From Octopus vulgaris (Eukaryota), in NCBI GenBank assembly GCA_951406725.2, contig OX597817.1, forward strand, positions 29,264,001 to 29,328,000: a stretch of DNA of 64,000 nucleotides, read 5' to 3'. Made by a program: the position numbers and the translations under genes. The notes under the pieces were generated by a model. That model was given only the letters and a program-made list of their open reading frames with translations, was not told the origin of the DNA and did no database searches. Shown piece by piece: positions 4,033-57,826 of the stretch; within the stretch, counting starts at the first letter, position 1, and every line of letters begins with the position of its first letter.

Positions 4033-4425
4033 TTTCTACTCTAGACACAAGGCCCGACATTATTGGGGAGTGGGCCAGTCAATTAGATTAACCCCAGTAT
4101 GCAACTGTCACTTGATTTATCAACCCTGAAAGGATGAAAGGCAAAATCGACCTTGGTGGAATTTGAACTCAGAACGTAAAGGCAGACAAAATACCTATTT
4201 CTTTACTACCCACAAGGGACAAAACACAGAGAGGACAAACAAGGACAGACAAACAGATTAAGTCGATTATATCGACCCCAGTGCATAACTGGTACTTATT
4301 TAATCGACCCTGAAAGGATGAAAGGCAAAATCGACCTTGGCGGAATTTGAACTCAGAACGTAAAGACAGATGAAATACCACTAAGCATTTCACCCGGTGT
4401 GCTAACATTTCCGCCAGCTCGCCGT
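4033..4425 (-). mobile_element. tRNA-derived SINE family 1 (core CCTTTCATCCTTTCGGGGTCGAT, Meta-domain-like), dimeric
   Basis: - strand head GGCGAGCTGGCGGAAATG and B box GAGTTCAAATTCC; many copies in the window. Confidence 0.85.
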
Positions 4426-5085
4426 CTTTAACAAATGCTTAAAATTCCCAACACTGTTGGATTATGTTTTGTAGTTATTGTTTCATAGCCCTAAGTCAAC
4501 CACAAGGGACAAAACACAGAGAGGACAAACAAGGACAGACAAACAGATTAAGTTGATTATATCGACCTCAGTGCGTAACTGGTACTTATTTAATCGACCC
4601 TGAAAGGATGAAAGGCAAAATCGACCTTGGCAGAATTTGAACTCAAAACGTAAAGACAGATGAAATACCACTAAGCATTTCACCCGGTGTGCTAACATTT
4701 CTGCCAGCTCGCCGTCTTTAACAAATGCTTAAAATTCCCAACACTGTTGGATTATGTTTTGTAGTTATTGTTTCGTAGCCCTAAGTCAACCACAAGGGAC
4801 AAAACACAGAGAGGACAAACAAGGACAGACAAACAGATTAAGTTGATTATATCGACCTCAGTGCGTAACTGGTACTTATTTAATCGACCCTGAAAGGATG
4901 AAAGGCAAAATCGACCTTGGCGGAATTTGAACTCAGAACGTAAAGACAGATGAAATACCACTAAGCATTTCACCTGGTGCGCTAACATTTCTGCCAGCTC
5001 GCCATCTTTAACAAATGCTTAAAATTCCCAACACTGTTGGATTATGTTTTGCAGTTATTGTTTCGTAGCCCTAAGTCAACCACAA
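4210..5085. repeat. three tandem ~290-bp units, each a family-1 SINE plus unique flank
   Basis: CACAAGGGACAAAACACAGA recurs at 4211, 4501 and 4791. Confidence 0.9.
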
Positions 5086-11379: not shown

Positions 11380-11915
11380 CATCATCCTCATCGTCACTTA
11401 ACATCTGCTTTCCATGCTGGCATGAGTTGGACGGTTTGACTGAGGGCTGGCAAGCTAGAAGGCTGCATCAGGCTCCAATCTGATCTGGCAAAGTTTCTAC
11501 AGCTGGATGTCCTTCCTTACACCAAACACTCCGACAGTGTAGTGGGTGCTTTTTATATGTCACTGGCATGAGGGCTAGTCAAGCACTACTGGCATCGGCC
11601 ACACTTCAATGGTACTTTTTGTGTGCCACCAGCATGGGAGTCAGTCAGGTGGCACTGGCAATGACCACACTCGAATGGTGCTTTTTACGTGCCATTGGCA
11701 TGGGAGCCTGTCTGGCAGCACTGGCAATGACCACACTCGAATGCTGCTTTTTACGTGCTACTGGCATGGGAACTGTCAGGCGGCACAGGCATTGACCATG
11801 CTCGAATTGTGCTTTTTACATGTCACCAGCATGGGTGCCAATCAGGCAGTACTGACTTCTATGACTTCACTCAACAGGTCTTCGCAAGTCCAGTTTATTG
11901 CCCAATGGATGATGA
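11380..11915 (-). mobile_element. RTE-like LINE 3' UTR fragment with ~70-bp internal tandem repeats and (GAT)n tail
   Basis: same family at 26455-26740 (+), 27925-28105, 31845-32125, 32690-32800 and 54283-54468 (-); linked to RTE coding sequence at 49800-50960. Confidence 0.7.
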
Positions 11916-19406: not shown

Positions 19407-19632
19407 TTCTGTTGTGTCTGAGGGAGAGTCATTTTCTTTTTGTGCCTTATAATTTAACACTCTCACCGGTAAAATTTCCACTTGTTTCTTATTTTTATTT
19501 TCCTAAAATTTTCATTGCGTCTTGCAACATTTTCAATGGGCACGAAAAGAAAATGACTCTCCCCAGACACAACAGAATATGCTTCAACACATGAACTCAC
19601 ATAAAGAATCTTGCAAACCAAATCCAAAAACG
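19407..19632. mobile_element. miniature PLE-like fold-back insertion (inverted 3' ends)
   Basis: same family as 20843-21175; flanking near-duplication AAATATAATATAAC/AAATATAATGTAAC. Confidence 0.65.
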
Positions 19633-19792
19633 AAATATAATGTAACTGGAATAAGAGAAAGCAAGTGATGGTTTTTATTACTTTGCTGGCTTCAGTCACT
19701 GTACAGTGGCTATTCTGGAGCACATTTTTATAATGTTTTAGTCAATTATATTGCCCAGGGGTGAGTTTAATATAAAATTTATGAGCTTCTGG

Positions 19793-34932: not shown

Positions 34933-36533
34933 AACAATTCCAAGGTAGAAGGTAAAGTTACTTTTTCAAGTCATGCCCATTCATAAGGGCTGGCTTCCCA
35001 GTTTCCATGGCACAAAAATACCTCACCTGGACAGCACGCAGGTCCATTGCAGAGTTACTCATTTTTGCCAGCTGTGTGGACTGGAACATCAGTGGAATGA
35101 AGTATTTTGCTTAAAAACGCAACACATCACCTGATACAGGAATGGAAATTACAATCTTATGACCATGAGTCCAACACCCTAACCACTAAGCCATGCACTT
35201 CCACACAATTCTTAGGAGCTTTCCTTCCTCATCTGTTGGAAGGTTTGATTCAAAGTGAGAAACTTCCATAGAAAGCCCAAGCAATTACTTGCATCGTGAA
35301 TTCATTTCTAACTTCAAAATTATTAAAAGGCAGTAACTGAAAAGTATGCATAAATAAGGCAAATCCTTGTCGAAATATATTTGATACAATTATTTGGCCC
35401 CAATGGATGCTATCACTGCCTTTTAGTGTTGCCAAATAAAAGTGCTAAAGAATAGAAGTTGAAAAAGTGCTAAAAATGAAAAATCGAAGCTAATAAAAGA
35501 ACTATATATATGAACTATACTTTTATAAATCTATTTATAAATATGCTTTCATGTATAAATATATTTTTCAAATATGTTTGCATGTGGTTTAACATTGTAT
35601 TATTTTTTCATTGATTGTAAAATTACAACAGAATGAAACCGAATCTTGTTTACATTTTCTAGTTTTGCCATTTGTATTTTTCTTCAATGACTTATGTACA
35701 GTTTTGAATAAACAATATACATTATACAAAGCACATTTTAATCTTTATATGATATATAGAAATAGAGATTCTGGTAATTTTTAAATATTGGGAAGTCTTT
35801 CTTTTTGGAGTATGTAAAATGGCTGAGAAGAAAATCAAAGAACCCAGCTTATCCTCTCTTTCTACCCCTCCCCTGTACCTACACCAACCCCATACCATCT
35901 GCATCCAAGCTGCAATCCCACTTTGCAAGCAGTTACCCTTCACACCTTGAAGAAAATCTGACCTTTCTGCAAGGTATGTAACTCAAGATGAATTCCCCTC
36001 TTAACTGCTCCCATGGGTTTTTCATTACAGTTTTTCACAGCACATGCAAATGCATTTTCACATAAGTGTTTTCATATAATAGTTTTACCGAAAATATATC
36101 GGATGCATGTATTCACAAGTTTGACATACATATGCAAAAGGGAGAGAGATGGGGGGGAAAAGGATTACTTGTTACTTCAGGTTTTTTTGTTTAAAAAAAT
36201 TTGTAGGGTATAAATCTTTATGTGCATGTTGCAGCCAAAACAGACTTTGAACTAGAAGAAAAATCATATTTAGCAGATCAGGAAATGGTTTGTAGTGTTA
36301 TTCAGCTAATCAAAATTTTAGTTGATTCTTCCATGATATGTAAGGACCCCGTATCAATAAAATGACTAAATGGGCATGTTACTTATAATATTTCTGAAAC
36401 AGGGGATTTAAGTTTTTTATTTGTGTGCTTTTTTTTTTTTGTGTATGAACTTTTCATGAGGGTATATGTTGGTTAATATTTTCCGAAAATGATATTTACA
36501 TCAATAATAAATCTCTGAATGAGGTATAAATAC

Positions 36534-37139
36534 CTGGGTATTTACTGGGTATTTACTGGGTATTTACCCAACGATGGGTAAATACCCAGAAACCCGGGTC
36601 CATACGTACGTATCACGTCAGGTCGACAATGGGAAGGGTGGCTTCCCTTTGCAAATACTGATAGGGCACAGAAAGGGTGTCAGTAGCCAGCTGGAGAAGA
36701 TGTTCTCCTGGGACTACAAGCTACAGTAGCATCCACTCTGAGTGGTTAGCCACATTTAAGTGGCAAATATACTTCACATTGTCTTGCAGCTACTGTTTAT
36801 ACCTCGTTCAGAGATTTGTTATTGCTTGTTTACACTTTTTCGAGATCGGTGACTTTTCGTCACTGGAAAAAGGATATATGTATTTGCATTGGGACCCCTT
36901 CGCATCGAAGACCGGTGATTGTCGTGCACTAACGACGGATAAATACCCAGAAACCCGGGTCTATACGTATGTATCACGTCAGGTCGACGATGGGAAGGAT
37001 GGCTTCCCTTTGCAAATACTGATAGGGCACAGAAAGGGTGTCAGTAGCCAGCTGGAGAAGATGTTCTCCTGGGGCTACAAGCTACAGTAGCATCCACCCT
37101 TAGTGGTTAGCCACATTTAAGTGGCATATATACTTCACA
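36534..37139. repeat. unclassified structured 361-bp unit in 1.6 tandem copies with a snap-back left junction
   Basis: AATACCCAGAAACCCGGGTC at 36581 and 36942; the second copy ends at TACTTCACA 37139. Confidence 0.85.
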
Positions 37140-37481
37140 ATATTTCCATCTATATAGACTAAAGCTTTTTAAAAGAAGGAAGTATTTCTAAATAAAATAT
37201 TGGTAAACAAAGACAAAAGTAACAGATTTCTGTTTTTATAAGAGAATAATTTTCTGTTCCTGAAAATGTCTTCCAGACATTTTGTTTGTGAGGTTATTGT
37301 AACTGATATTTGTGTTGGTGTTGTTGTTCTTATTATTATCAGTCTAAATCCACTGTGATGATGATGATGTAGTAGACCTATCTTCAGCTTGTAATTTATT
37401 ACATGTGTGTTTGTGTGTGTATAAAACAAATAATATGGGTGGCTCATTAGTGATTTAACAACCTAAAAGCAAATTAATAGA

Positions 37482-37741
37482 GGTCACTAAAATGACAGAG
37501 GGTACTAATTAGTACCAGTATTGCTAGAAATAAGAGTCAAAACAACTCAAAAGCCACAAAGCACTATCTTAATGACTGACAAAGGAAGTTGAGTTTAACC
37601 CGAGGCAATTTGGCTATATCCACTAGATGCTTACCTCCCCTTGTCAGTCATTAAGCTAGTGCTTTGTGACTTTTGAGTTGCATTGACTCTTATTTCCAGC
37701 AATACTGGTACTAATTAGAACCCTCTATCACTTTAGTGCCC
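37482..37741. repeat. 260-bp fold-back (~108-bp imperfect arms), MITE-like
   Basis: 37482-37589 is approximately the reverse complement of 37633-37741. Confidence 0.85.
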
Positions 37742-38006
37742 ACTCTCTCTCTCTATATATATATACACATACATACACATAAATACATACATGTATATAC
37801 ATATATGTGTGTGTGTGTGAGTGTATATATATATATATATATATACATACATACACACACACACACATAAATATATATACATACACACACACACATAAAT
37901 ATATATACATACACACACACACACACACATAAATATATATACATACACACACACACACATAAATATATATACATACACACACACACACACACAAATATAT
38001 ATACAT

Positions 38007-38050
<44 letters not shown>
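37742..38050. repeat. (TA)/(CA) minisatellite-like tract
   Basis: AAATATATATACATACACACAC units ending in pure (TA)n. Confidence 0.9.
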
Positions 38051-38051
<1 letters not shown>

Positions 38052-38328
38052 CCGGAGTAAACACATAAATGTGAAACAAGGTGGAAAAAAGTACTCAAAT
38101 ACCAGTGGTAGAGTAATATGCTTTATTTAAAGCAGCAGAAAATTCAACAAAACCTGTTACTCTGAGTTTCCCGTTGCCGTTCGTCGGACAGTTTTTGCTA
38201 GAATGGAACCGATATGTGAATTCTATCCAGACTATTACAAACGCTACACTTTTAAAAAATGGATTTGTTTGATTGGTCCTTTAGAAATAACGGCCAATTT
38301 TCGAGCGATAAACATAGATGAGTTCAAA
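38051..38328 (-). mobile_element. PLE 3' terminus (probably the distal 3' UTR of element A)
   Basis: on - strand: hammerhead, then AATAAA (~38122-38127), then tail ending in (TA)n; bounded by (TA)n on both sides. Confidence 0.7.
38149..38195 (-). ncRNA. minimal type I hammerhead, U4C variant, quasi-palindromic stem III
   Basis: aaaacugu-CCGACGA-a-cg(gcaa)cg-g-GAA-Acuc(a)gagU-A-acagguuuu; GUA triplet. Confidence 0.7.
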
Positions 38329-38486: not shown

Positions 38487-38901
38487 ATTTAACAAGAATT
38501 GTATTAGCATTTATACATTTAGGCAGGTTTAAAGGAGTGGTGGTGGGGGACTTTTTGGGGGTAGGCATAGCGCAAAATATCATACTTGGGGGAGTGGTCA
38601 AGGAGTCAGTGGTAAGTTAGATGAAAGAATAGATAAATAAAAAAATAAAAAAATAAAAAAATAAAAAATAAAAAAATAAAATAAAAAAATAAAAAAATAA
38701 AAAAATAAAAAATATAAAAAATATATATAAAAAATATATATATAAAAAAATATATATATAAAATATATATATAAAAAAATATATATATAAAAAAAAGGGG
38801 GGATAGAGTTATAGGTAAATAAGGAGATTCTCACTTATACCTATACACACATGTATACGTATCTACACACACATACATACATACACATATATATACACAC
38901 A

Positions 38902-38938
<37 letters not shown>

Positions 38939-39384
38939 ACCTACACACATACATACATACAAATATACATATACATATATATATATACAATCCAATACAG
39001 GCCCATTCCCTAATTTTAATTTTATTATCTTCATTTATTACTTTTGTTATCTTTGATCGCTAGGGCTAAGAATCCTGGCAATGGCTGCATGTCCATTTGT
39101 CTGTCTACTAGAAGGCAAGTACTCATTCCCGCACGCACACTCATTAGCACGTACATTCACCCATTCGTACACTCATACACATACACGTACGCACGCGTTA
39201 TATTCATACATACAAACATCTACATACGTTCACGTATATACACATACGTACTCGTACCTAAAGGTTCGTGTCTACACTTTAGGAGGCTAGTCTATACATA
39301 TACACCAATAAATATACATATATATATATATACACGCATATACATACACACACACACATATATACTCCTACATACAGATACATA

Positions 39385-39430
<46 letters not shown>

Positions 39431-39932
39431 TATATATATACACATGCATATACACACATACATATACACACACATACATACACATATATACATACACAAA
39501 CATATATACACACATATATATATACATACACATATACACACATACATACGTATACATACATACATACATCCATACATCCATACTTACATGCATTTATACG
39601 CATACACACACCCCCATCTATATATATGTATATATATATATATATATATACACACTCACACATACATATACAAATCTACGCACACACATACATACATACA
39701 CGTATACGCATACACGCACATACACATATACATGCGTACCCATACACGTGCACACACGCACGCGCATCCATATATATACACACACACACATATATATACA
39801 CGTGTGCAAGCATACATACATACTCATACGCAAACACATACTTACAAATACATATATGCACACACTTACACACATATATATACACATACACATATACATG
39901 CATACATACATATATGCATACATACACACACG

Positions 39933-39982
<50 letters not shown>

Positions 39983-40041
39983 TACATACATATATAGATA
40001 TATATACACATACATACACATACACATACATACACACATAT

Positions 40042-40084
<43 letters not shown>

Positions 40085-40287
40085 TACATATATACACATA
40101 TACATACATATACATACACACACACATACATATATACATATACACTGATACACATACCCATACATACACATGCATATACTTATATCACTACATACTCACA
40201 TATATAAACATATATACATATACACACATACATATATACATGTACATACACATACGTATGCATATATATATATACATATATATACAC

Positions 40288-40332
<45 letters not shown>

Positions 40333-40572
40333 TACATACATATACATGTATACATACGCAAAAATGATACACATATATACACATACACACACACAGACAG
40401 ATGCATATACATACATATATCTATATAAACTACATATCTATATAAATACATACATAATACACATATACACACACATATATATATATACATTCATGCATAT
40501 ACATATACAAGTATACATACACATACATACACACACACGCGCACACATACATATACACACACACATATACAA

Positions 40573-40639
<67 letters not shown>

Positions 40640-41005
40640 CATGTACACATATACATATGTATATATATATCAACAAGGGAGGGTAAAGTTAATTAGTTAT
40701 TAATCAATTTCATCAAGTGTTCAGTATGTAAAGGGACCATTATTATTTTGAGTAAACAATGTTAGAGGGAAAAAAAATTCTCTAAGTAGTGGAAGAGGCT
40801 AAAAAACTTTATTGGCTGCTATTTCTAGAAAGTTTAGTATGTGGCAAAGTAATTTATTTTATTTTCCTAAGCCCTAATTATATAATATTTTATACATACA
40901 TACACATACATAAGCACATACATTTACACATACATATGCATATACATATATACACATATACATACAAACACATATACACATATACACACACACACACATA
41001 CAAGC

Positions 41006-41050
<45 letters not shown>

Positions 41051-41289
41051 AATATATATACATATATATTTTTACATGCATACATACACACACACACACA
41101 TAATACATGCGTATATTCCTACTGTACCCATGTATTTCTATACATATATACATACATACAAACGATACACATATACAAGCGTGCACATATAATATGTGAA
41201 AGGTCTTAGGAGAAAAGGTAATCGGGGGTGCTAGGGGAACAGTGGGGTTGGGGGGGGGGTTGTAGGAGGGGGGGTCACCTGTAGCTAGG

Positions 41290-41591
41290 GCGTTGTCATC
41301 AATCAGGTTGCCGGGTAGGTCTATAGTTCTTGTAGTTCGCATACTTCTTATGCATGCAATTTGCCAGGAGTGTTCTGAAAATTTGTTAAGGAGAGGGCCT
41401 TTGGCGAACAAGATATCTAGGCTCTCTGATATGCATAGGTCACGGCAGGTATGCCTCCTGTGTACGAGCGCGCCTTCTGTAGTAGTTTCCCACTTGGTCT
41501 TGAAGGGAGTTCCTTTTATAGGTACCCAGATGTGGGCGGCGAGGGTAGTTTGGTTGGATCCTGTCGCCGGAACGAGTGTGTATGTGCATAC
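41290..41591 (-). pseudogene. GIY-YIG endonuclease C-terminal remnant (left arm, frameshifted)
   Basis: mirror of 41625-41930 with small indels. Confidence 0.8.
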
Positions 41592-41607
41592 TTTCCAATG
41601 GTCTTAA

Positions 41608-41922
41608 AGCTTTATGACCCGCTGGTATGCACATACACACTCGTTCCGGCGACAGGATAAATCCAACCAAACTACCCTCGCCGCCCACATCTGGTACCTT
41701 AAAAGGAACTCAATCCCCTTCAAGACCAAGTGGAAACTACTACAGAAGGCGCGCTCGTACACAGGAGGACATACCTGCTGTGACCTATGCATATCAGAGA
41801 GCCTAGAGATCTTGTTCGCCAAAGGCCCTCTCCTTAACAAATTTTCAGAACACTCCCCAAATTGCATGCATAAGAAGTATGCGAACTACAAGAACTATAG
41901 ACCTACCCGGCAACCTGATTGA
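41608..41922 (+). pseudogene. GIY-YIG endonuclease C-terminal remnant of a Naiad-like PLE (right arm)
   Basis: SFMTRWYAH..SF..TTLAAHIW..W..CDLCISE..LLNKFSE..CMH aligns by eye to SFKTRFYSH..SF..TSLAKYVW..W..CNLCLLE..SLNQRSE..CRH of the 630-aa ORF. Confidence 0.88.
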
Positions 41923-42163
41923 TGACAACGCCCCCCTACAACCCCCCCCCTACACCCCCCCCCCAACCCCACTGTTCCCCTAGCACCCCCGATTACCTTT
42001 TCTCCTAAGACCTTTCACATATTATATGTGCACGCTTGTATATGTGTATCGTTTGTATGTATGTATATATGTATAGAAATACATGGGTACAGTAGGAATA
42101 TACGCATGTATTATGTGTGTGTGTGTGTATGTATGCATGTAAAAATATATATGTATATATATT

Positions 42164-42204
<41 letters not shown>

Positions 42205-42566
42205 GCTTGTATGTGTGTGTGTGTGTATATGTGTATATGTGTTTGTATGTATATGTGTATATATGTATATGCATATGTATGTGTAAATGTATGTGCTTAT
42301 GTATGTATGTATGTATAAAATATTATATAATTAGGCTTAGGAAAATAAAATAAATTACTTTGCCACATACTAAACTTTCTAGAAATAGCAGCCAATAAAG
42401 TTTTTTAGCCTCTTCCACTACTTAGAGAATTTTTTTCCCTCTAACATTGTTTACTCAAAATAATAATGGTCCCTTTACATACTGAACACTTGATGAAATT
42501 GATTAATAACTAATTAACTTTACCCTCCCTTGTTGATATATATATACATATGTATATGTGTACATG

Positions 42567-42627
<61 letters not shown>

Positions 42628-42885
42628 ATGTGTGTATGTATGTATTTGTATATGTGTGTGTGTATATGTATGTGTGCGCGTGTGTGTATGTATGTATGTA
42701 TACTTGTATATGTATATGCATGAATGTATATATATATATGTGTGTGTATATGTGTATTATGTATGTATTTATATAGATATGTAGTTTATATAGATATATG
42801 TATGTATATGCATCTGTCTGTGTGTGTGTATGTGTATATATGTGTATCATTTTTGCGTATGTATACATGTATATGTGTATATGTA

Positions 42886-42918
<33 letters not shown>

Positions 42919-43223
42919 GTGTATATATATGTATATATATATATATATGCATACGTATGTGTATGTACATGTATATATGTATGTGTGTATATGTATATAT
43001 GTTTATATATGTGAGTATGTAGTGATATAAGTATATGCATGTGTATGTATGGGTATGTGTATCAGTGTATATGTATATATGTATGTGTGTGTGTATGTAT
43101 ATGTATGTATATGTGTATATATGTATGTGTATATGTGTATGTATATATATATATATATATGTGTATATGTGTGTATGTATGTGTATGTGTATGTATGTGT
43201 ATATATATCTATATATGTATGTA

Positions 43224-43269
<46 letters not shown>

Positions 43270-43765
43270 TGCGTGTGTGTATGTATGCATATATGTATGT
43301 ATGCATGTATATGTGTATGTGTATATATATGTGTGTAAGTGTGTGCATATATGTATTTGTAAGTATGTGTGCGCGTATGAGTATGTATGTATGCTTGCAC
43401 ACGTGTATATATATGTGTGTGTGTGTATATATATGGATGCGCGTGCGTGTGTGCACGTGTATGGGTACGCATGTATATGTGTATGTGCGTGTATGCGTAT
43501 ACGTGTATGTATGTATGTGTGTGCGTAGATTTGTATATGTATGTGTGAGTGTGTATATATATATATATATATATATACATATATATAGATGGGGGTGTGT
43601 GTATGCGTATAAATGCATGTAAGTATGGATGTATGGATGTATGTATGTATGTATACGTATGTATGTGTGTATGTGTGTATGTATATATATATGTGTGTAT
43701 ATATGTTTGTGTATGTATATATATGTGTATGTATGTGTGTGTATATGTATGTGTGTATGTGTATG

Positions 43766-43823
<58 letters not shown>

Positions 43824-44274
43824 TATGTATCTGTATGTAGGAGTATATATGTGTGTGTGTGTATGTATATGCGTGTATATATATATATATGTATATTTAT
43901 TGGTGTATATGTATAGACTAGCCTCCTAAAGTGTAGACACGAACCTGTAGGTACGAGTACGTATGTGTATATACGTGAACGTATGTAGATGTTTGTATGT
44001 ATGAATATAACGCGTGCGTACGTGTATGTGTATGAGTGTACGAATGGGTGAATGTACGTGCTAATGAGTGTGCGTGCGGGAATGAGTACTTGCCTTCTAG
44101 TAGACAGACAAATGGACATGCAGCCATTGCCAGGATTCTTAGCCCTAGCGATCAAAGATAACAAAAGTAATAAATGAAGATAATAAAATTAAAATTAGGG
44201 AATGGGCCTGTATTGGATTGTATATATATATATGTATATGTATATTTGTATGTATGTATGTGTGTATGTGTAGG

Positions 44275-44312
<38 letters not shown>

Positions 44313-44699
44313 TGTGTGTATATATATGTGTATGTATGTATGTGTGTGTAGATACGTATACATGTGTGTATAGGTATAAGTGAGAATCTCCTTATTTACC
44401 TATAACTCTATCCCCCCTTTTTTTATATATATATTTTTATATATATATATTTTATATATATATTTTTTTATATATATTTTTTTTATATATATTTTTTATA
44501 TTTTTTATTTTTTTATTTTTTTATTTTATTTATTTTTTTATTTTTTTATTTATCTATTCTTTCATCTAACTTACCACTGACTCCTTGACCACTCCCCCAA
44601 GTATGATATTTTGCGCTATGCCTACCCCCAAAAAGTCCCCCACCACCACTCCTTTAAACCTGCCTAAATGTATAAATGCTAATACAATTCTTGTTAAAT

Positions 44700-44750
44700 A
44701 GCTTCCTGAAGATTTCTCTTGAATGAAACAGTACTAGTCCTGTAGAAGCT
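44700..44750 (+). ncRNA. type I hammerhead ribozyme (right arm of element B)
   Basis: agcuuc-CUGAAGA-u-uuc(ucuu)gaa-u-GAA-Acag(uacuaguc)cugU-A-gaagcu; 6-bp stem I; GUA triplet; predicted cleavage after 44744; AATAAA at 44761. Confidence 0.85.
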
Positions 44751-44802: not shown

Positions 44803-47784
44803 AAATATAAAAATATATAAAAAATATATTAAAAAATATATAAAATATAGAAAAATATATTAAAAAAATATATACAAAATTATAAACTTCGAGGAAAAAC
44901 CTTACATTGAATAAAATACATATTGACCTTAATGAAGGAAATATAATTAATACATGGGAATTGAAATGCATTAAAAATATGTATTAAAAATATAACACAG
45001 CAATTCATATTCATATTAAAGTATACATATATACCAACATACACAGAATAGATGCGTGCGAACCCCATACATATCCAGACGTATAAATATAAAGCTAAAA
45101 TATACACGCAGGTGCATGTATACATATGTATACGCAATCTAGCTCGCACGCAAGCTAAAATCATAGTAGATTAAGTATCTTCCGTATTTACGAAGCTTAG
45201 GGCATGAATGAGCGAGGGGAGCGTGAAGCTGCCTGCTGGCTTTATACATGTATCGTATTGTTAGAGAAAAAACGAAAGAAAGGAAGAGAGAGAAAAAGGA
45301 AAAGGGGAAGGAAAAAAAGAAAAGAAAAAAGAAAAAGAACAAAGGAGGGTTGGGGAGAAAAACGGAATAGGAAAAAAAGAAAGACTATGTATACAAGCCG
45401 TGCAACCTCGTACATTGACACATATATAGAGATGCCAGTGCACAAACATGTGTTTGTGTGTGTTCGAGCACAAACATACGCTTACTCACACATACACAGG
45501 GACGCACTCTCACGAACACACACTCGTGGCCATACACACACCTACATCACAATTCTAATTTTTGACAACATTGCTTTTAAAAAAAGGTGAGTGTAATAAT
45601 GAAAATTATATGAGAGATATGTAAAATGTATCCCCCTATTTCAGATCATCTATAAATTAAAATCAAAGTAAGCCTATACAATATAATAACACTAAGTCGA
45701 AGGTTTTTCCTAATAAATATGTAGAAATTTAAACAAAATATATGCATGAGGCTTTGCTATACGGAATGGAATCTGCATAGCGCGAAACAAATCCATCGTT
45801 GCGTTTACATACTAGTCCAAGAATCAAAATCAAAATTTCAAAATCAAAAATACAAAATATATACTCTAACCATATGGTATATTTATGCTTGACATTTTAA
45901 ATTTGGCTGCGTGCCTGCATAAGTTCATCAGCTCACTTCTTTGATTCAAAGAATTATTGTCTTTGAATAAGATGTAGAATTTTTCTAACAGGCAAAGGTT
46001 GCATTTGAAATTATTTTTGTGTGCTCCATGCCTGTATGGTGCCGCTCTGTCCAGAATGCTCCATGTCACATTGAAAGGTGGGGTTTCCTTTTCTTTCAGT
46101 TCCCAGACATATTTTGCTAGGCTGGTCCTCTTCCTATTTTCTGGGTATCTAAATGAATTTTTATGAGAATAAAATCGCGTTTTAAACGAGTTTTCTGAAG
46201 CCCCTGTATATGTCTTGTATTCCGATGAGCCTTCTATTTGTACCTTCGCTTTGTAAACTACTCCTTTTACTAGACATTTCCCTTCTAACGGGCAGAAGGA
46301 TTCATTTTTGAAATTGCATTTCTTAATGGGCTTGGCACCATGTTTAATCTCAATCAGATTCCTATTATGCTGGCTAATGTAAGACGCGAAATTTCTACAA
46401 CAAGAATAGCTAACCTTCAGTGTTCTATTAAATATCCTATAGAATTTATGGTCCTGCTTAAAATGCTTAGAGATTAATTTCAAAAATTCCTTACCTATAT
46501 TAGTCTTTACGGCCAAATTGAAAGCCGGGTTGAACCACAAAACTTTCCTGTTCCTAGTTCTTCGCGCGGTATTATTATCAGCATTAGGCTGGTTGTACTG
46601 GATCTTCTCCGAGAATCCACTATTCCTTAATGCGCTATCGTAATAAGGCGCAGCATTATGGAATGCTGCTTCGTCCGAAGAAATTGAAGATATTCTTCTA
46701 CCTACATTGCTGACTAAGTTCCTAAGGATAACTGGCGGATGGTTCGAATCTTTGCTAATATACGATAGCTTTTCGTTGGGCTTACAGAAAGGTTTAAATC
46801 TATCCGACCTTACATTAAAATTTACGTCTAAAAAATCTACACTATTCAGGTTAGTGTCTATTGTAACCCGTAAGCCCATCCTTTGGAAGAAAGCAATAAA
46901 GTCCTTTCTAAGTCTATCTGATTCATGGCCGTTTAAATTATGGGTGGCTATAAGGCCGTCATCCCTATATAAACCTGCATCTATAAATGGGAATTCTATT
47001 TTTAGATTATGAAGAATACAGGCTCCTACGAGCATACATAACTCAGCCCCGTCGTATGCCCCCATCGGTACATCCAAAAGAGAATCCTCACTCTTCTTGA
47101 TCCAGGTGGAATCCTCGAAAAAAAGAAGTGATATCCTCGCATGCATAATAATAATATCAATTTCCGAGCTATCGATGTCGACATACTGCTTGGCGAAGTC
47201 TAATGCCCTTAGGAGTAACGTCCTAGATATTGACGGGTAAAAATCAATAATATCGAATTGTGTAAAACTGCAATTATTCTTATAGCTAATACCTTTAAAC
47301 CACTCTATGACTGACTTACTATTCTTCCAAATTCTCAAGTTTACTTCACTATCTAACTTAGTTAAAATACGGTCCAAAATATTTTTGCTAATAATGCCTA
47401 TTTCAGTTTTAGCTGGGTTTATCAATCTACATTTAGGGTTTCTATTAAAATTGGCTTTATGGTCTTTTAGTGTAATAAAAGCTGGTCGTGGGGAAAGATA
47501 TTCAATCCTATCACTAACCTTAAGCTTGTTAGCTATTCCTCTTGCTTCCAAATTCACTTCTTTGTATATATTTGTGTTATCTTTTTTGTATGTGTCTGTG
47601 ACACTATTCGAAATCAGGCGTTTATAAACGTCCTTATCAAGTGCATATAAGTTCCTTGTCTTATCAGAATTAACGAAGATCTTATTCGAGTTGTTAATCT
47701 CCTTAATTTTTTCTTTCATATTTCTTTGTAATTGGTTGCTATATTTGCGGAATTTCATTTTCCTAATAAATTCGAAAAGGTCTT
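44796..47784 (-). mobile_element. PLE element A (Naiad-like), 5'-truncated body and proximal 3' UTR
   Basis: reading frame stays open upstream of the Met (DLFEFIRK) to a (TA)n junction at ~47784; ~1.07 kb lies downstream of the stop before (TA)n. Confidence 0.85.
45866..47758 (-). CDS. Penelope-like reverse transcriptase + C-terminal GIY-YIG endonuclease (630 aa, N-terminally truncated)
   Basis: RT motifs FDIIDFYPSI, PMGAYDG, YRDD, FLDV; SNHPP; Cys linker CNF..CPLEGKC; VVY...YTG..FKTR..H; CNLC..EK; LNQRSE..CRH. Confidence 0.95.
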   Translation of the reverse strand: MKFRKYSNQLQRNMKEKIKEINNSNKIFVNSDKTRNLYALDKDVYKRLISNSVTDTYKKDNTNIYKEVNLEARGIANKLKVSDRIEYLSPRPAFITLKDHKANFNRNPKCRLINPAKTEIGIISKNILDRILTKLDSEVNLRIWKNSKSVIEWFKGISYKNNCSFTQFDIIDFYPSISRTLLLRALDFAKQYVDIDSSEIDIIIMHARISLLFFEDSTWIKKSEDSLLDVPMGAYDGAELCMLVGACILHNLKIEFPFIDAGLYRDDGLIATHNLNGHESDRLRKDFIAFFQRMGLRVTIDTNLNSVDFLDVNFNVRSDRFKPFCKPNEKLSYISKDSNHPPVILRNLVSNVGRRISSISSDEAAFHNAAPYYDSALRNSGFSEKIQYNQPNADNNTARRTRNRKVLWFNPAFNLAVKTNIGKEFLKLISKHFKQDHKFYRIFNRTLKVSYSCCRNFASYISQHNRNLIEIKHGAKPIKKCNFKNESFCPLEGKCLVKGVVYKAKVQIEGSSEYKTYTGASENSFKTRFYSHKNSFRYPENRKRTSLAKYVWELKEKETPPFNVTWSILDRAAPYRHGAHKNNFKCNLCLLEKFYILFKDNNSLNQRSELMNLCRHAAKFKMSSINIPYG

Positions 47785-56929: not shown

Positions 56930-57533
56930 GGCAGCGAGCTGGCAGAAACGTTAGCACACTGGGCGAAATGCTTAGCTGTATTCCGTCTGCTGTTACATTC
57001 TGAGTTCAAATTCTACCGAGGTCAACTTTGCTTTTCATCCTTTCGGGGTCGATAGATTAAGTACCAGTTATGCACTGGGGCCGATGTAATCGACTTAATC
57101 CATTTGTCTGTCCTTGTTTGTCCCCTCTGTGTTTAGCCCCTTTTGGGTATTAAAGATATTGGTATTTCGTCAGCCACTATGTTCTGAGTTCAAATTCCAC
57201 CGAGGTCGACTTTGTTTTTCATCCTTTTGTGGTCGACAAATTAAGTACCAGTTACGCACTGGGGGGCCGATGTAATCTACTTAATCCATTTGGCTGTATT
57301 GTTTGTCCCCTCTGTGTTTAGACCCTTTTGGGTAGTAAAGAAATAGGTATTTCGTCAGTCTTTACGTTCTGAGTTCAAATTCCACCGAAGGTCGAACTTT
57401 GCTTTTCATCCTTTCGGGGTGGATAGATTAAGTACCAGTTATGCACTGGGGCCGATGTAATCGACTTAATATGTTTGTCTGTCCTTGTTTGTCCCCTCTG
57501 TGTTTAGCCTCTTGTGGGTAGTAAAGAAATAGG
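56930..57533 (+). mobile_element. SINE family 1 trimer
   Basis: one full monomer plus two head-less monomers restarting at GGTATTTCGTC (~57161, ~57346). Confidence 0.9.
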
Positions 57534-57826
57534 TATATGTGTTGATAGAATAGTGAATCATCTACATGGTAATATAACATGTGAGCAGTTTCATTGATTT
57601 ATCAAATAGATAGCCATTGTCAAAATCAATAGAGGGTTTCTCTTGATTAGGAACCAGTATAGCATCTTTTTCAATACTGTTGCATAATAAATGAGACAAT
57701 GTAATGGCATATACCTTTATCAATTTCACAAGCCTGCATTTGCATACTATGTTTCTTTTTCAAATCATAGTGAGATAAAACATCGCAGACTTTAAACAAT
57801 GATGATGATGATGACGACGATGATTT

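What the first reader, a model, noticed from the sequence alone, without database searches (positions are those of the whole stretch)
36534..37139. Unclassified 361-nt highly structured unit integrated as 1.6 tandem copies: candidate circular-RNA/retrozyme-like element with no recognisable ribozyme
Seen: a GC/CpG-rich unit packed with hairpins (GGGAAG/CTTCCC, TACTGA/TCAGTA, GGAGAA/TTCTCC, CCACT/AGTGG, GCCAC/GTGGC, GTGAC/GTCAC, CTTCG/CGAAG, GTCGT/ACGAC). Nested long-range helices close it into one multibranched fold: TGCAAATAC 36650 with GTATTTGCA 36880; GGTC..CAATG with CATTG..GACC; CCGGGTC with GACCGG. No credible ORF. Established: metazoan non-LTR retrozymes are tandem units of a few hundred nt that yield circular RNAs and are thought to use PLE enzymes. 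Inference: a more-than-unit-length copy fits reverse transcription around a circle. No canonical hammerhead, twister, pistol or HDV core was found, so any processing motif may be new.
Basis: partly seen in the sequence, partly recalled or inferred. Interest (0 to 1): 0.75.

Follow-up and report, generated by a model that had tools for sequence, protein, structure and literature searches.

The report
Octopus retrozyme copy with broken hammerhead
This is one damaged copy of a small jumping repeat with over a thousand copies in this animal genome; the family carries an ordinary hammerhead self-cutting RNA motif across the seam between repeats and was likely pasted in by a Penelope-type retrotransposon enzyme, so it is a new member of a known group (retrozymes) rather than a new ribozyme.

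Summary
The 361-nt unit, its 1.57 tandem copies and the hairpins are real. The claim 'no recognisable ribozyme' fails. A minimal type I hammerhead spans the junction between units (36914-36979). In this copy it is damaged (CUAACGA for CUGANGA, stem II mispaired), and the upstream one is cut off by a 5' inversion. The family has at least 1,394 unit copies and 317 exact intact hammerhead cores (controls 0). Across 33 units of 49-93% identity, RNAalifold recovers stems I-III, 26 of 43 pairs change on both sides, and stem III is a palindrome in 21 of 33, as in dimer-acting hammerheads. Insertions show the Penelope footprint: 32 of 38 3' ends fall in two classes about 45 nt apart, mostly at AT microsatellites, with 5' inversions. 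Verdict: a non-LTR retrozyme, probably in an octopus. Cleavage, circles and the partner enzyme are not shown. A side finding is more interesting: an ORF1-only LINE-like cassette (RRM-like folds plus CCHC, dN/dS 0.12) sits just before the hammerhead of many relatives, and some composites were re-copied as one RNA.

The parts
36502..36530 (-). Short inverted arm: unit positions 225-253, ending at the family's 3'-end class B
   Evidence: blastn 93% over 29 nt; end classes
36534..36570 (-). Arm junction: three copies of CTGGGTATTTA, the reverse complement of the stem II/loop II stretch; likely a reverse-transcriptase snap-back with slippage
   Evidence: TRF 3.1 x 11 nt; inverted match 36553-36592; mechanism inferred
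36571..36600 (+). 5'-truncated hammerhead: ACGA, intact stem II, GAAA, palindrome CCCGGG, UC; lacks C3-U4-G5 and the 5' strand of stem I
   Evidence: sequence
36572..36932 (+). First full 361-nt unit (structured body; helices with compensatory changes across families)
36914..36979 (+). Type I minimal hammerhead across the unit junction, damaged: G5 to A at 36931, stem II mispaired, 4-nt insertion in the 3' strand of stem I; predicted cut after 36961 in intact relatives
   Evidence: alignment row 'win'; RNAalifold
36914..36928 (+). Leader / 5' strand of stem I; in relatives this stretch is duplicated on both sides of an inserted ORF1-like cassette
   Evidence: L032, L047 junctions
36933..37139 (+). 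Second, partial unit (positions 1-207), ending at the family's 3'-end class A

Best explanation
The stretch is a damaged genomic copy of a multi-copy, non-coding 361-nt repeat whose family carries a type I hammerhead motif across the unit junction, and it likely spreads as a non-LTR retrozyme whose self-cut, probably circularised RNA would be reverse-transcribed into AT-rich sites by a Penelope-like element's enzyme. Shown: copy number, hammerhead core and stems with compensatory changes, a palindromic stem III, two fixed 3' ends, AT-microsatellite flanks, inverted 5' arms and partial tandems. Inferred: tandem transcripts self-cleave after GUC, likely as dimers because stem III is 1-2 pairs plus a palindrome; monomers are ligated to circles by a host ligase, as shown for mussel and axolotl; a Penelope RT/GIY-YIG protein primes at a nicked (AT)n site about 180 or 225 nt downstream of the cut and copies back through the junction, giving more than one unit; a second arm primed at the other end class gives the inversion. 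This copy is likely ribozyme-dead.
For: 1,394 exact hits of a body 18-mer against 0 for the reversed control; 317 exact intact cores against 0. In 33 aligned units (49-93% identical to L004), A6, A9, G12, A13, A14 and A15.1 are invariant; G5 31/33, U16.1 32/33; C3-G8 in 29 and the compensating U3-A8 in 3, a swap described for Schistosoma PLE hammerheads (PMC4209133). Unprompted RNAalifold predicts stems I, II and III; 26 of 43 named pairs change on both sides, 94.4% of cells pair against 37-49% when slid. Stem III is an exact palindrome in 21 of 33, with several different sequences. In 29 loci picked by chromosome order, 32 of 38 free 3' ends lie at unit positions 198-211 (17) or 246-261 (15); 22 of those 32 have a microsatellite run within 24 nt; 6 of 9 two-armed insertions have one end of each class and none has two of the same class. 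These features (partial tandems, inverted 5' copy, 30-40-bp tail, (TA)n targets) are listed for PLEs in PMC8557442. An autonomous RT + GIY-YIG family in this genome shows the same design: palindromic minimal hammerhead, (AT)n flank, two ends about 37 nt apart, 15 and 6 of 21. Mussel retrozyme units are about 350-390 bp (PMC7229834).
Against: Rfam finds no hammerhead here or at gathering score in 13 relatives. Single-sequence folding does not give the hammerhead fold (z 0.22, 0.00, 1.14 for three junctions). About half of the 33 aligned rows were picked from my own hammerhead scan, which inflates core conservation; 10 of 33 have C at U4. Only 11 of 29 unselected loci are tandem, so most copies hold at most one ribozyme. 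No PLE carrying this unit as its terminal repeat was found in 103 PLE loci, and the tail likeness to the candidate PLE is not significant (162 of 1000 shuffles score as high). The window copy is not flanked by a clean (AT)n run, and no target duplication above 6 nt was found. Fixed 3' ends fit a linear template as well as a circle.
Confidence: 0.75

Rival explanations
1. Same family and same Penelope-type mobilisation, but the template is a linear read-through or dimeric transcript (non-autonomous PLE with pseudo-LTRs); the hammerhead trims RNA or is vestigial, and no circle is needed.
For: 3' ends are fixed, not permuted; mixed arrays such as unit-unit-cassette-unit (L032) are not strictly periodic; non-autonomous Chlamys PLEs make head-to-tail copies although most Chlamys lack canonical hammerheads (PMC8557442).
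Against: The core and stems are conserved across families down to 49% identity, which argues for function; genomic copies run through the junction uncut, as a ligated circle would give; circles were shown for mussel, coral and axolotl repeats of this design (PMC7229834).
Confidence: 0.15
2. The unit is the terminal repeat and promoter of a protein-coding element of about 1.9 kb (unit + ORF1-like gene), and the window copy is its internally deleted derivative.
For: 19 of 30 loci picked by the cassette's 3' motif are followed within 40 nt by a hammerhead and unit; the ORF is under purifying selection (median dN/dS 0.12 in the core, 76 pairs of 13 ORFs); L052 has two 96-98% identical arms that both start inside the ORF and end in the unit.
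Against: The cassette also occurs alone: L213 is 5'-truncated with a 15-nt target duplication in unrelated DNA; arrays such as L058 have no unit; ORF lineages do not follow unit families (family 1 carries ORFs 49% and 100% identical to the query, family 2 one at 83%); the duplicated leader looks like a target-site duplication.
Confidence: 0.06
3. Copies are orphan pseudo-LTRs of an autonomous Penelope-like element that I did not find.
For: PLE-like ends and ribozyme type; a 2026 preprint derives retrozymes from pLTRs (10.64898/2026.07.22.740005); one divergent unit follows an inverted RT fragment in L078.
Against: Unit-to-unit junctions are contiguous and ORF-free in 21 of 24 best-scoring loci; in 103 PLE loci no unit sat as a same-strand terminal repeat of an intact ORF; the three hits among the last 60 loci were on the opposite strand or in an inverted pair, two of them checked and beside (AT)n.
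Confidence: 0.05
4. One reading: the unit is processed by a new, unrecognised ribozyme.
For: No intact CUGANGA core in this copy; no Rfam match; the rest of the unit holds conserved helices of unknown role.
Against: An ordinary hammerhead accounts for processing at family level; outside it, invariant columns are few and mostly in stems.
Confidence: 0.03

Closest known systems
Metazoan non-LTR retrozymes (coral, Mytilus, axolotl; Cervera and de la Pena 2020, PMC7229834; parts 2-4 of 6 read)
   Same: Non-coding tandem unit of a few hundred nt, GC under 50%, one type I hammerhead per unit, weak palindromic helix III as in axolotl HHR_Amex1, self-paired fold, co-occurrence with PLEs.
   Different: Mostly 1-2 units per locus with two fixed 3' ends and inverted arms; a host probably not covered in the parts read (supplement not seen); relatives carry an inserted ORF1-like cassette; cleavage and circles not tested here.
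Penelope-like elements and their pseudo-LTR minimal hammerheads (PMC4209133, part 1 of 4 read; PMC8557442, passages and section 6 read)
   Same: Partial tandems, 5' truncation, inverted 5' copy, tail between two 3' ends, (TA)n targets, palindromic helix III, U3-A8 core variant.
   Different: No RT or GIY-YIG ORF; tail about 45 nt rather than 30-40; no sequence-similar autonomous partner found.
Non-autonomous Chlamys PLEs such as MRC1 (PMC8557442, passage read)
   Same: ORF-free, pLTR-forming, multicopy head-to-tail insertions.
   Different: Those generally share 3' sequence with an autonomous family and most Chlamys lack canonical hammerheads; here the hammerhead is present and the shared 3' end is not found.
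For the cassette in relatives: HAL1-type ORF1-only LINEs and Tx1-type site-specific LINEs (recalled; HAL1 seen only in a search listing), and Terminons (PMC6431247, passages read)
   Same: Single ORF1-like gene without RT, poly(A) signal, about 15-nt target duplication; like Terminons, co-oriented ORF arrays ending in a hammerhead-bearing 3' end.
   Different: The preferred site is the leader of a retrozyme; composites are re-copied with Penelope-type inverted arms; not telomeric.

Membership tests
Metazoan non-LTR retrozyme | Short (150-450 bp) non-coding unit in dispersed, tandem copies | tested here: met
   361 nt, no ORF; 1,394 hits; 11 of 29 unselected and 21 of 24 best loci tandem
Metazoan non-LTR retrozyme | Type I hammerhead in each unit (family level) | tested here: met
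Metazoan non-LTR retrozyme | Two consecutive intact hammerheads in this copy ('active' criterion of 10.64898/2026.07.22.740005) | tested here: not met
   One core has G5A and a mispaired stem II, the other is 5'-truncated; this makes the copy defective, not a non-member
Metazoan non-LTR retrozyme | No LTR/PBS/PPT organisation with 4-bp TSD | tested here: inconclusive
   Ends are partial tandems with variable 5' ends and inversions; PBS and PPT were not searched for
Metazoan non-LTR retrozyme | RNA self-cleavage | not testable with these tools
   needs in vitro transcription
Metazoan non-LTR retrozyme | Expressed as circular RNA | tested here: inconclusive
   Family sequence lies in contigs of 4 of 4 runs only guessed to be RNA; contigs cannot show strand, ends or circles
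Penelope-like element (autonomous) | ORF with RT and GIY-YIG endonuclease | tested here: not met
   no ORF in the unit; none attached as an intact ORF in the loci examined
Penelope-like element (insertion footprint) | Partial tandem, inverted 5' copy, tail, (TA)n target | tested here: met
   internal control PLE family
Penelope-like element (non-autonomous partner) | 3' sequence shared with an autonomous family | tested here: inconclusive
   not found in 103 PLE loci from a few families; tail likeness not significant; search not exhaustive
Twister, pistol, hatchet, HDV-like ribozymes | Match to the family's covariance model | tested here: inconclusive
   no Rfam match, but Rfam also misses the hammerhead that is present

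The most novel reading that the evidence does not exclude
This retrozyme superfamily has become a vehicle: an ORF1-only LINE-like gene (two RRM-like folds plus CCHC knuckle, under purifying selection) lands just before the hammerhead, is transcribed from the unit, and the composite is cut and circularised by the flanking hammerheads into a protein-coding circular RNA of about 2 kb that a Penelope RT re-inserts, sometimes writing A-to-I edits into the genome. The 361-nt unit would be the empty vector of an animal coding-retrozyme system.
Probability: 0.25. Interest if true: 0.7.

Novelty: new member of a known kind. Interest (0 to 1): 0.3.

Why it matters
The assigned claim (new processing motif) falls, so the locus itself is ordinary. 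What remains useful: a probable cephalopod retrozyme superfamily with at least five divergent unit types gives covariation for a dimer-type hammerhead and for body helices of unknown role; the two fixed 3' ends, one per arm, are a clean read-out of the still poorly understood Penelope priming mechanism; and relatives that carry and re-mobilise an ORF1-like gene would extend retrozymes from non-coding to cargo-bearing elements if circles are shown. Earlier notes of this scan already describe the cassette and two-armed insertions, so these are not first sightings within the scan.

Tried and rejected
Rfam at E up to 10 on 35500-38200: only microsatellite and hairpin matches, none at gathering score; 13 relatives at gathering score: 0. 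CTGATAG...GAAAG at 36657 as a hammerhead half-core: rejected, not conserved in family 2. Minus strand as the RNA: its shuffle z is better for one window, but the hammerhead and the family 2 fold energy (-140.9 plus, -120.9 minus) point to plus. GIY-YIG fragment next to a unit in L034: antisense and separated by other repeats, judged independent. Partner search: 43 loci of two long-ORF PLE families and 60 GIY-YIG loci, no same-strand terminal copy beside an intact ORF; tail alignment to the 781-aa family not significant. Target-site duplication at the window copy: none above 6 nt. Sequencing runs: no holder on record as RNA; contigs of four runs guessed to be RNA carry family sequence (694, 312, 226 and 148 records laid) but cannot show strand, ends or circles. 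Word-index protein search with the cassette ORF: none of 7,995 candidates passed; the profile search found 1,100 at E up to 0.001; no solved-structure match below E 0.03 by sequence; the Atlas gave no result. The structure model is weak (mean pLDDT 54.5), so the RRM call rests on many Z 7-9 matches over residues 54-137 and tandem-RRM Foldseek hits. Literature: 'retrozyme'+'octopus' (3 papers, 2 listed), 'octopus'+'hammerhead ribozyme' (5 papers, 4 listed) and 3 of 4 of retrozyme/ORF/zinc knuckle/protein-coding (74 papers, 20 listed) listed no paper on cephalopod or ORF-bearing animal retrozymes by title or abstract start; the supplements of PMC7229834 and of the 2026 preprint were not seen and may list cephalopods.

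Full report
Observation. The stretch holds a 361-nt unit (36572-36932) and a second copy of its first 207 nt ending at 37139, 95% identical. All 11 motif pairs checked are present, the unit folds better than 100 of 100 shuffles on either strand, and there is no ORF. The element begins earlier than stated: 36502-36530 is an inverted copy of unit positions 225-253, and the 11-nt triplet repeat at 36534-36567 is the reverse complement of the unit's start.

Copy number and host. The window lies in a 2.8-Gb genome. The unit has 3,719 first-look candidates, of which 40 were scored, and one body 18-mer occurs 1,394 times against 0 for the control. A second family of about 62% identity and period about 354 has 2,569 candidates, and profile searches show further divergent types. 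Six of ten homologues of a neighbouring ORF that I looked up carry names, all from Octopus species or Argonauta, so the host is likely an octopus.

The ribozyme. Reading across the unit boundary in relatives gives stem I - CUGAYGA - stem II - GAAA - palindrome - UC - stem I, a minimal type I hammerhead. In 33 aligned units, six core positions are invariant, G5 holds in 31, and three of the most divergent units swap C3-G8 for U3-A8, a variant reported for Schistosoma PLEs (PMC4209133, part 1 of 4 read). RNAalifold predicts the three stems without guidance. Of 43 named pairs, 26 change on both sides, including all 9 of stems I and II; no shuffle of 500 reaches this, and slid controls pair only 37-49% of cells against 94%. 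Stem III is an exact palindrome in 21 of 33 with several different sequences, the design that PMC4209133 and PMC7229834 link to dimer cleavage. A strict pattern for the intact family 1 core matches 317 places against 0. Caveats: about half the rows came from my own hammerhead scan, 10 of 33 have C at U4, Rfam does not detect the motif, and single sequences do not fold into it. In the window the junction copy reads CUAACGA (G5A, recalled as inactivating) with a mispaired stem II, and the upstream copy lacks its 5' half. This explains the miss and makes this copy likely dead.

Insertion footprint. In 29 loci taken in chromosome order (30 fetched, one duplicate dropped), 32 of 38 free 3' ends fall at unit positions 198-211 or 246-261; 22 of these 32 have a microsatellite run of 6 nt or more within 24 nt, a lenient test; 6 of 9 two-armed insertions have one end of each class and none has two of the same class; 11 of 29 are tandem. 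Among the 24 best-scoring loci (six overlapping views of one array dropped), 22 of 36 ends fall in the two classes. The window copy fits: direct arm ends at 207, inverted arm at 253, although its flanks are not clean (AT)n. PMC8557442 (passages and section 6 read) lists partial tandems, an inverted 5' copy, a 30-40-bp tail and (TA)n targets as PLE features. The genome holds young PLE families; one with RT and GIY-YIG has a palindromic U3-A8 hammerhead, AT flanks and two ends about 37 nt apart, 15 and 6 of 21. No PLE carried this unit as its terminal repeat in 103 loci, so the partner is unnamed.

Mechanism. Shown: family, hammerhead anatomy, covariation, ends. Inferred: tandem transcript, dimer-assisted cleavage after GUC, ligation to a circle by a host ligase as for axolotl and mussel (PMC7229834, parts 2-4 of 6 read), then target-primed reverse transcription by a PLE enzyme starting at one of two fixed internal sites and passing through the ligated junction, with a second arm primed at the other site. 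A linear multi-unit template would leave much the same DNA, so the circle is the weakest step. Contigs of four runs guessed to be RNA contain the family but cannot settle this.

The cassette in relatives. Several copies are followed by about 1.5 kb with a single ORF of about 450 aa. It has a CCHC knuckle, a low-confidence model with RRM-like folds, 14,204 candidates in the genome and median dN/dS 0.12 in the core (76 pairs). Of 30 loci picked by its 3' motif, 19 are followed within 40 nt by a hammerhead and unit, and the leader is duplicated on both sides. It also occurs alone: L213 is 5'-truncated with a 15-nt duplication, and some arrays have no unit. I therefore read it as an independent ORF1-only LINE that favours the leader, which agrees with three earlier notes of this scan. 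My addition is that composites move as one RNA: in L052 both arms start inside the ORF, are 96-98% identical and end in the unit. Some cassette copies differ from their neighbours almost only by A to G (163 of 170 differences in L078, 124 of 153 in L062, 164 of 171 for L071 against L076; controls 6 mixed and 199 mixed), which points to edited RNA templates. The window copy has no cassette.

Verdict. A defective copy of a non-LTR retrozyme, a new member of a known kind. The processing motif is a known hammerhead type. Interest 0.3, carried mainly by the end pattern and the cargo-bearing relatives; the coding-circle reading has probability about 0.25.

Noticed in passing
L078 4725-3376, L062 5665-4701, L071 2795-1422 (all minus strand): Cassette copies that differ from close copies almost only by A to G on the sense strand (163 of 170, 124 of 153, 164 of 171 differences): likely ADAR-hyperedited RNA written back into the genome. 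In L078 and L062 it is the first copy of the array.
   Followed up: partly
L035 1766-6019 (G000:C11, 18.75 Mb): Array of about 13 units of period about 320, 97-99% identical among the 11 compared, all lacking stem II and GAAA of the hammerhead, while the inverted arm keeps an intact core.
   Followed up: partly
L058, L059, L080-L086: Head-to-tail arrays of the ORF1-like cassette, period about 1.8 kb, often mixing lineages 30-62% identical to the query, joined at poly(A) signals and with no retrozyme unit detected.
   Followed up: partly
L078 5140-4860 (minus strand): A cassette array starts right after a different CCAAT/TATA-like stretch that follows a truncated Penelope RT-GIY-YIG ORF; fits the idea that the cassette targets transcription starts.
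   Followed up: no
window 38865-44343: Long inverted repeat with GIY-YIG-like C-terminal fragments on both strands at its centre (41608-41919 plus, from 41603 minus): a two-armed Penelope-like insertion.
   Followed up: no
window 45869-46498 (minus) and 44706-44745 (plus): C-terminal GIY-YIG part of an abundant PLE family (20,944 candidates, open frame 638 aa here), and a hammerhead-like core on the opposite strand about 1.1 kb beyond its stop.
   Followed up: partly
window 19550-19633: Fragment of the 3' end of a young PLE family with a 1,312-aa ORF.
   Followed up: no
window 4210-5085, 56978-57536, 11545-11854: Tandem arrays of period 290 (3 copies, 97%), 185 (3 copies) and 66 of dispersed SINE-like repeats.
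   Followed up: no
L270-L294: PLE family with 781-aa open frames, a U3-A8 palindromic minimal hammerhead and two 3' ends about 37 nt apart at (AT)n; L277 has one of each.
   Followed up: partly
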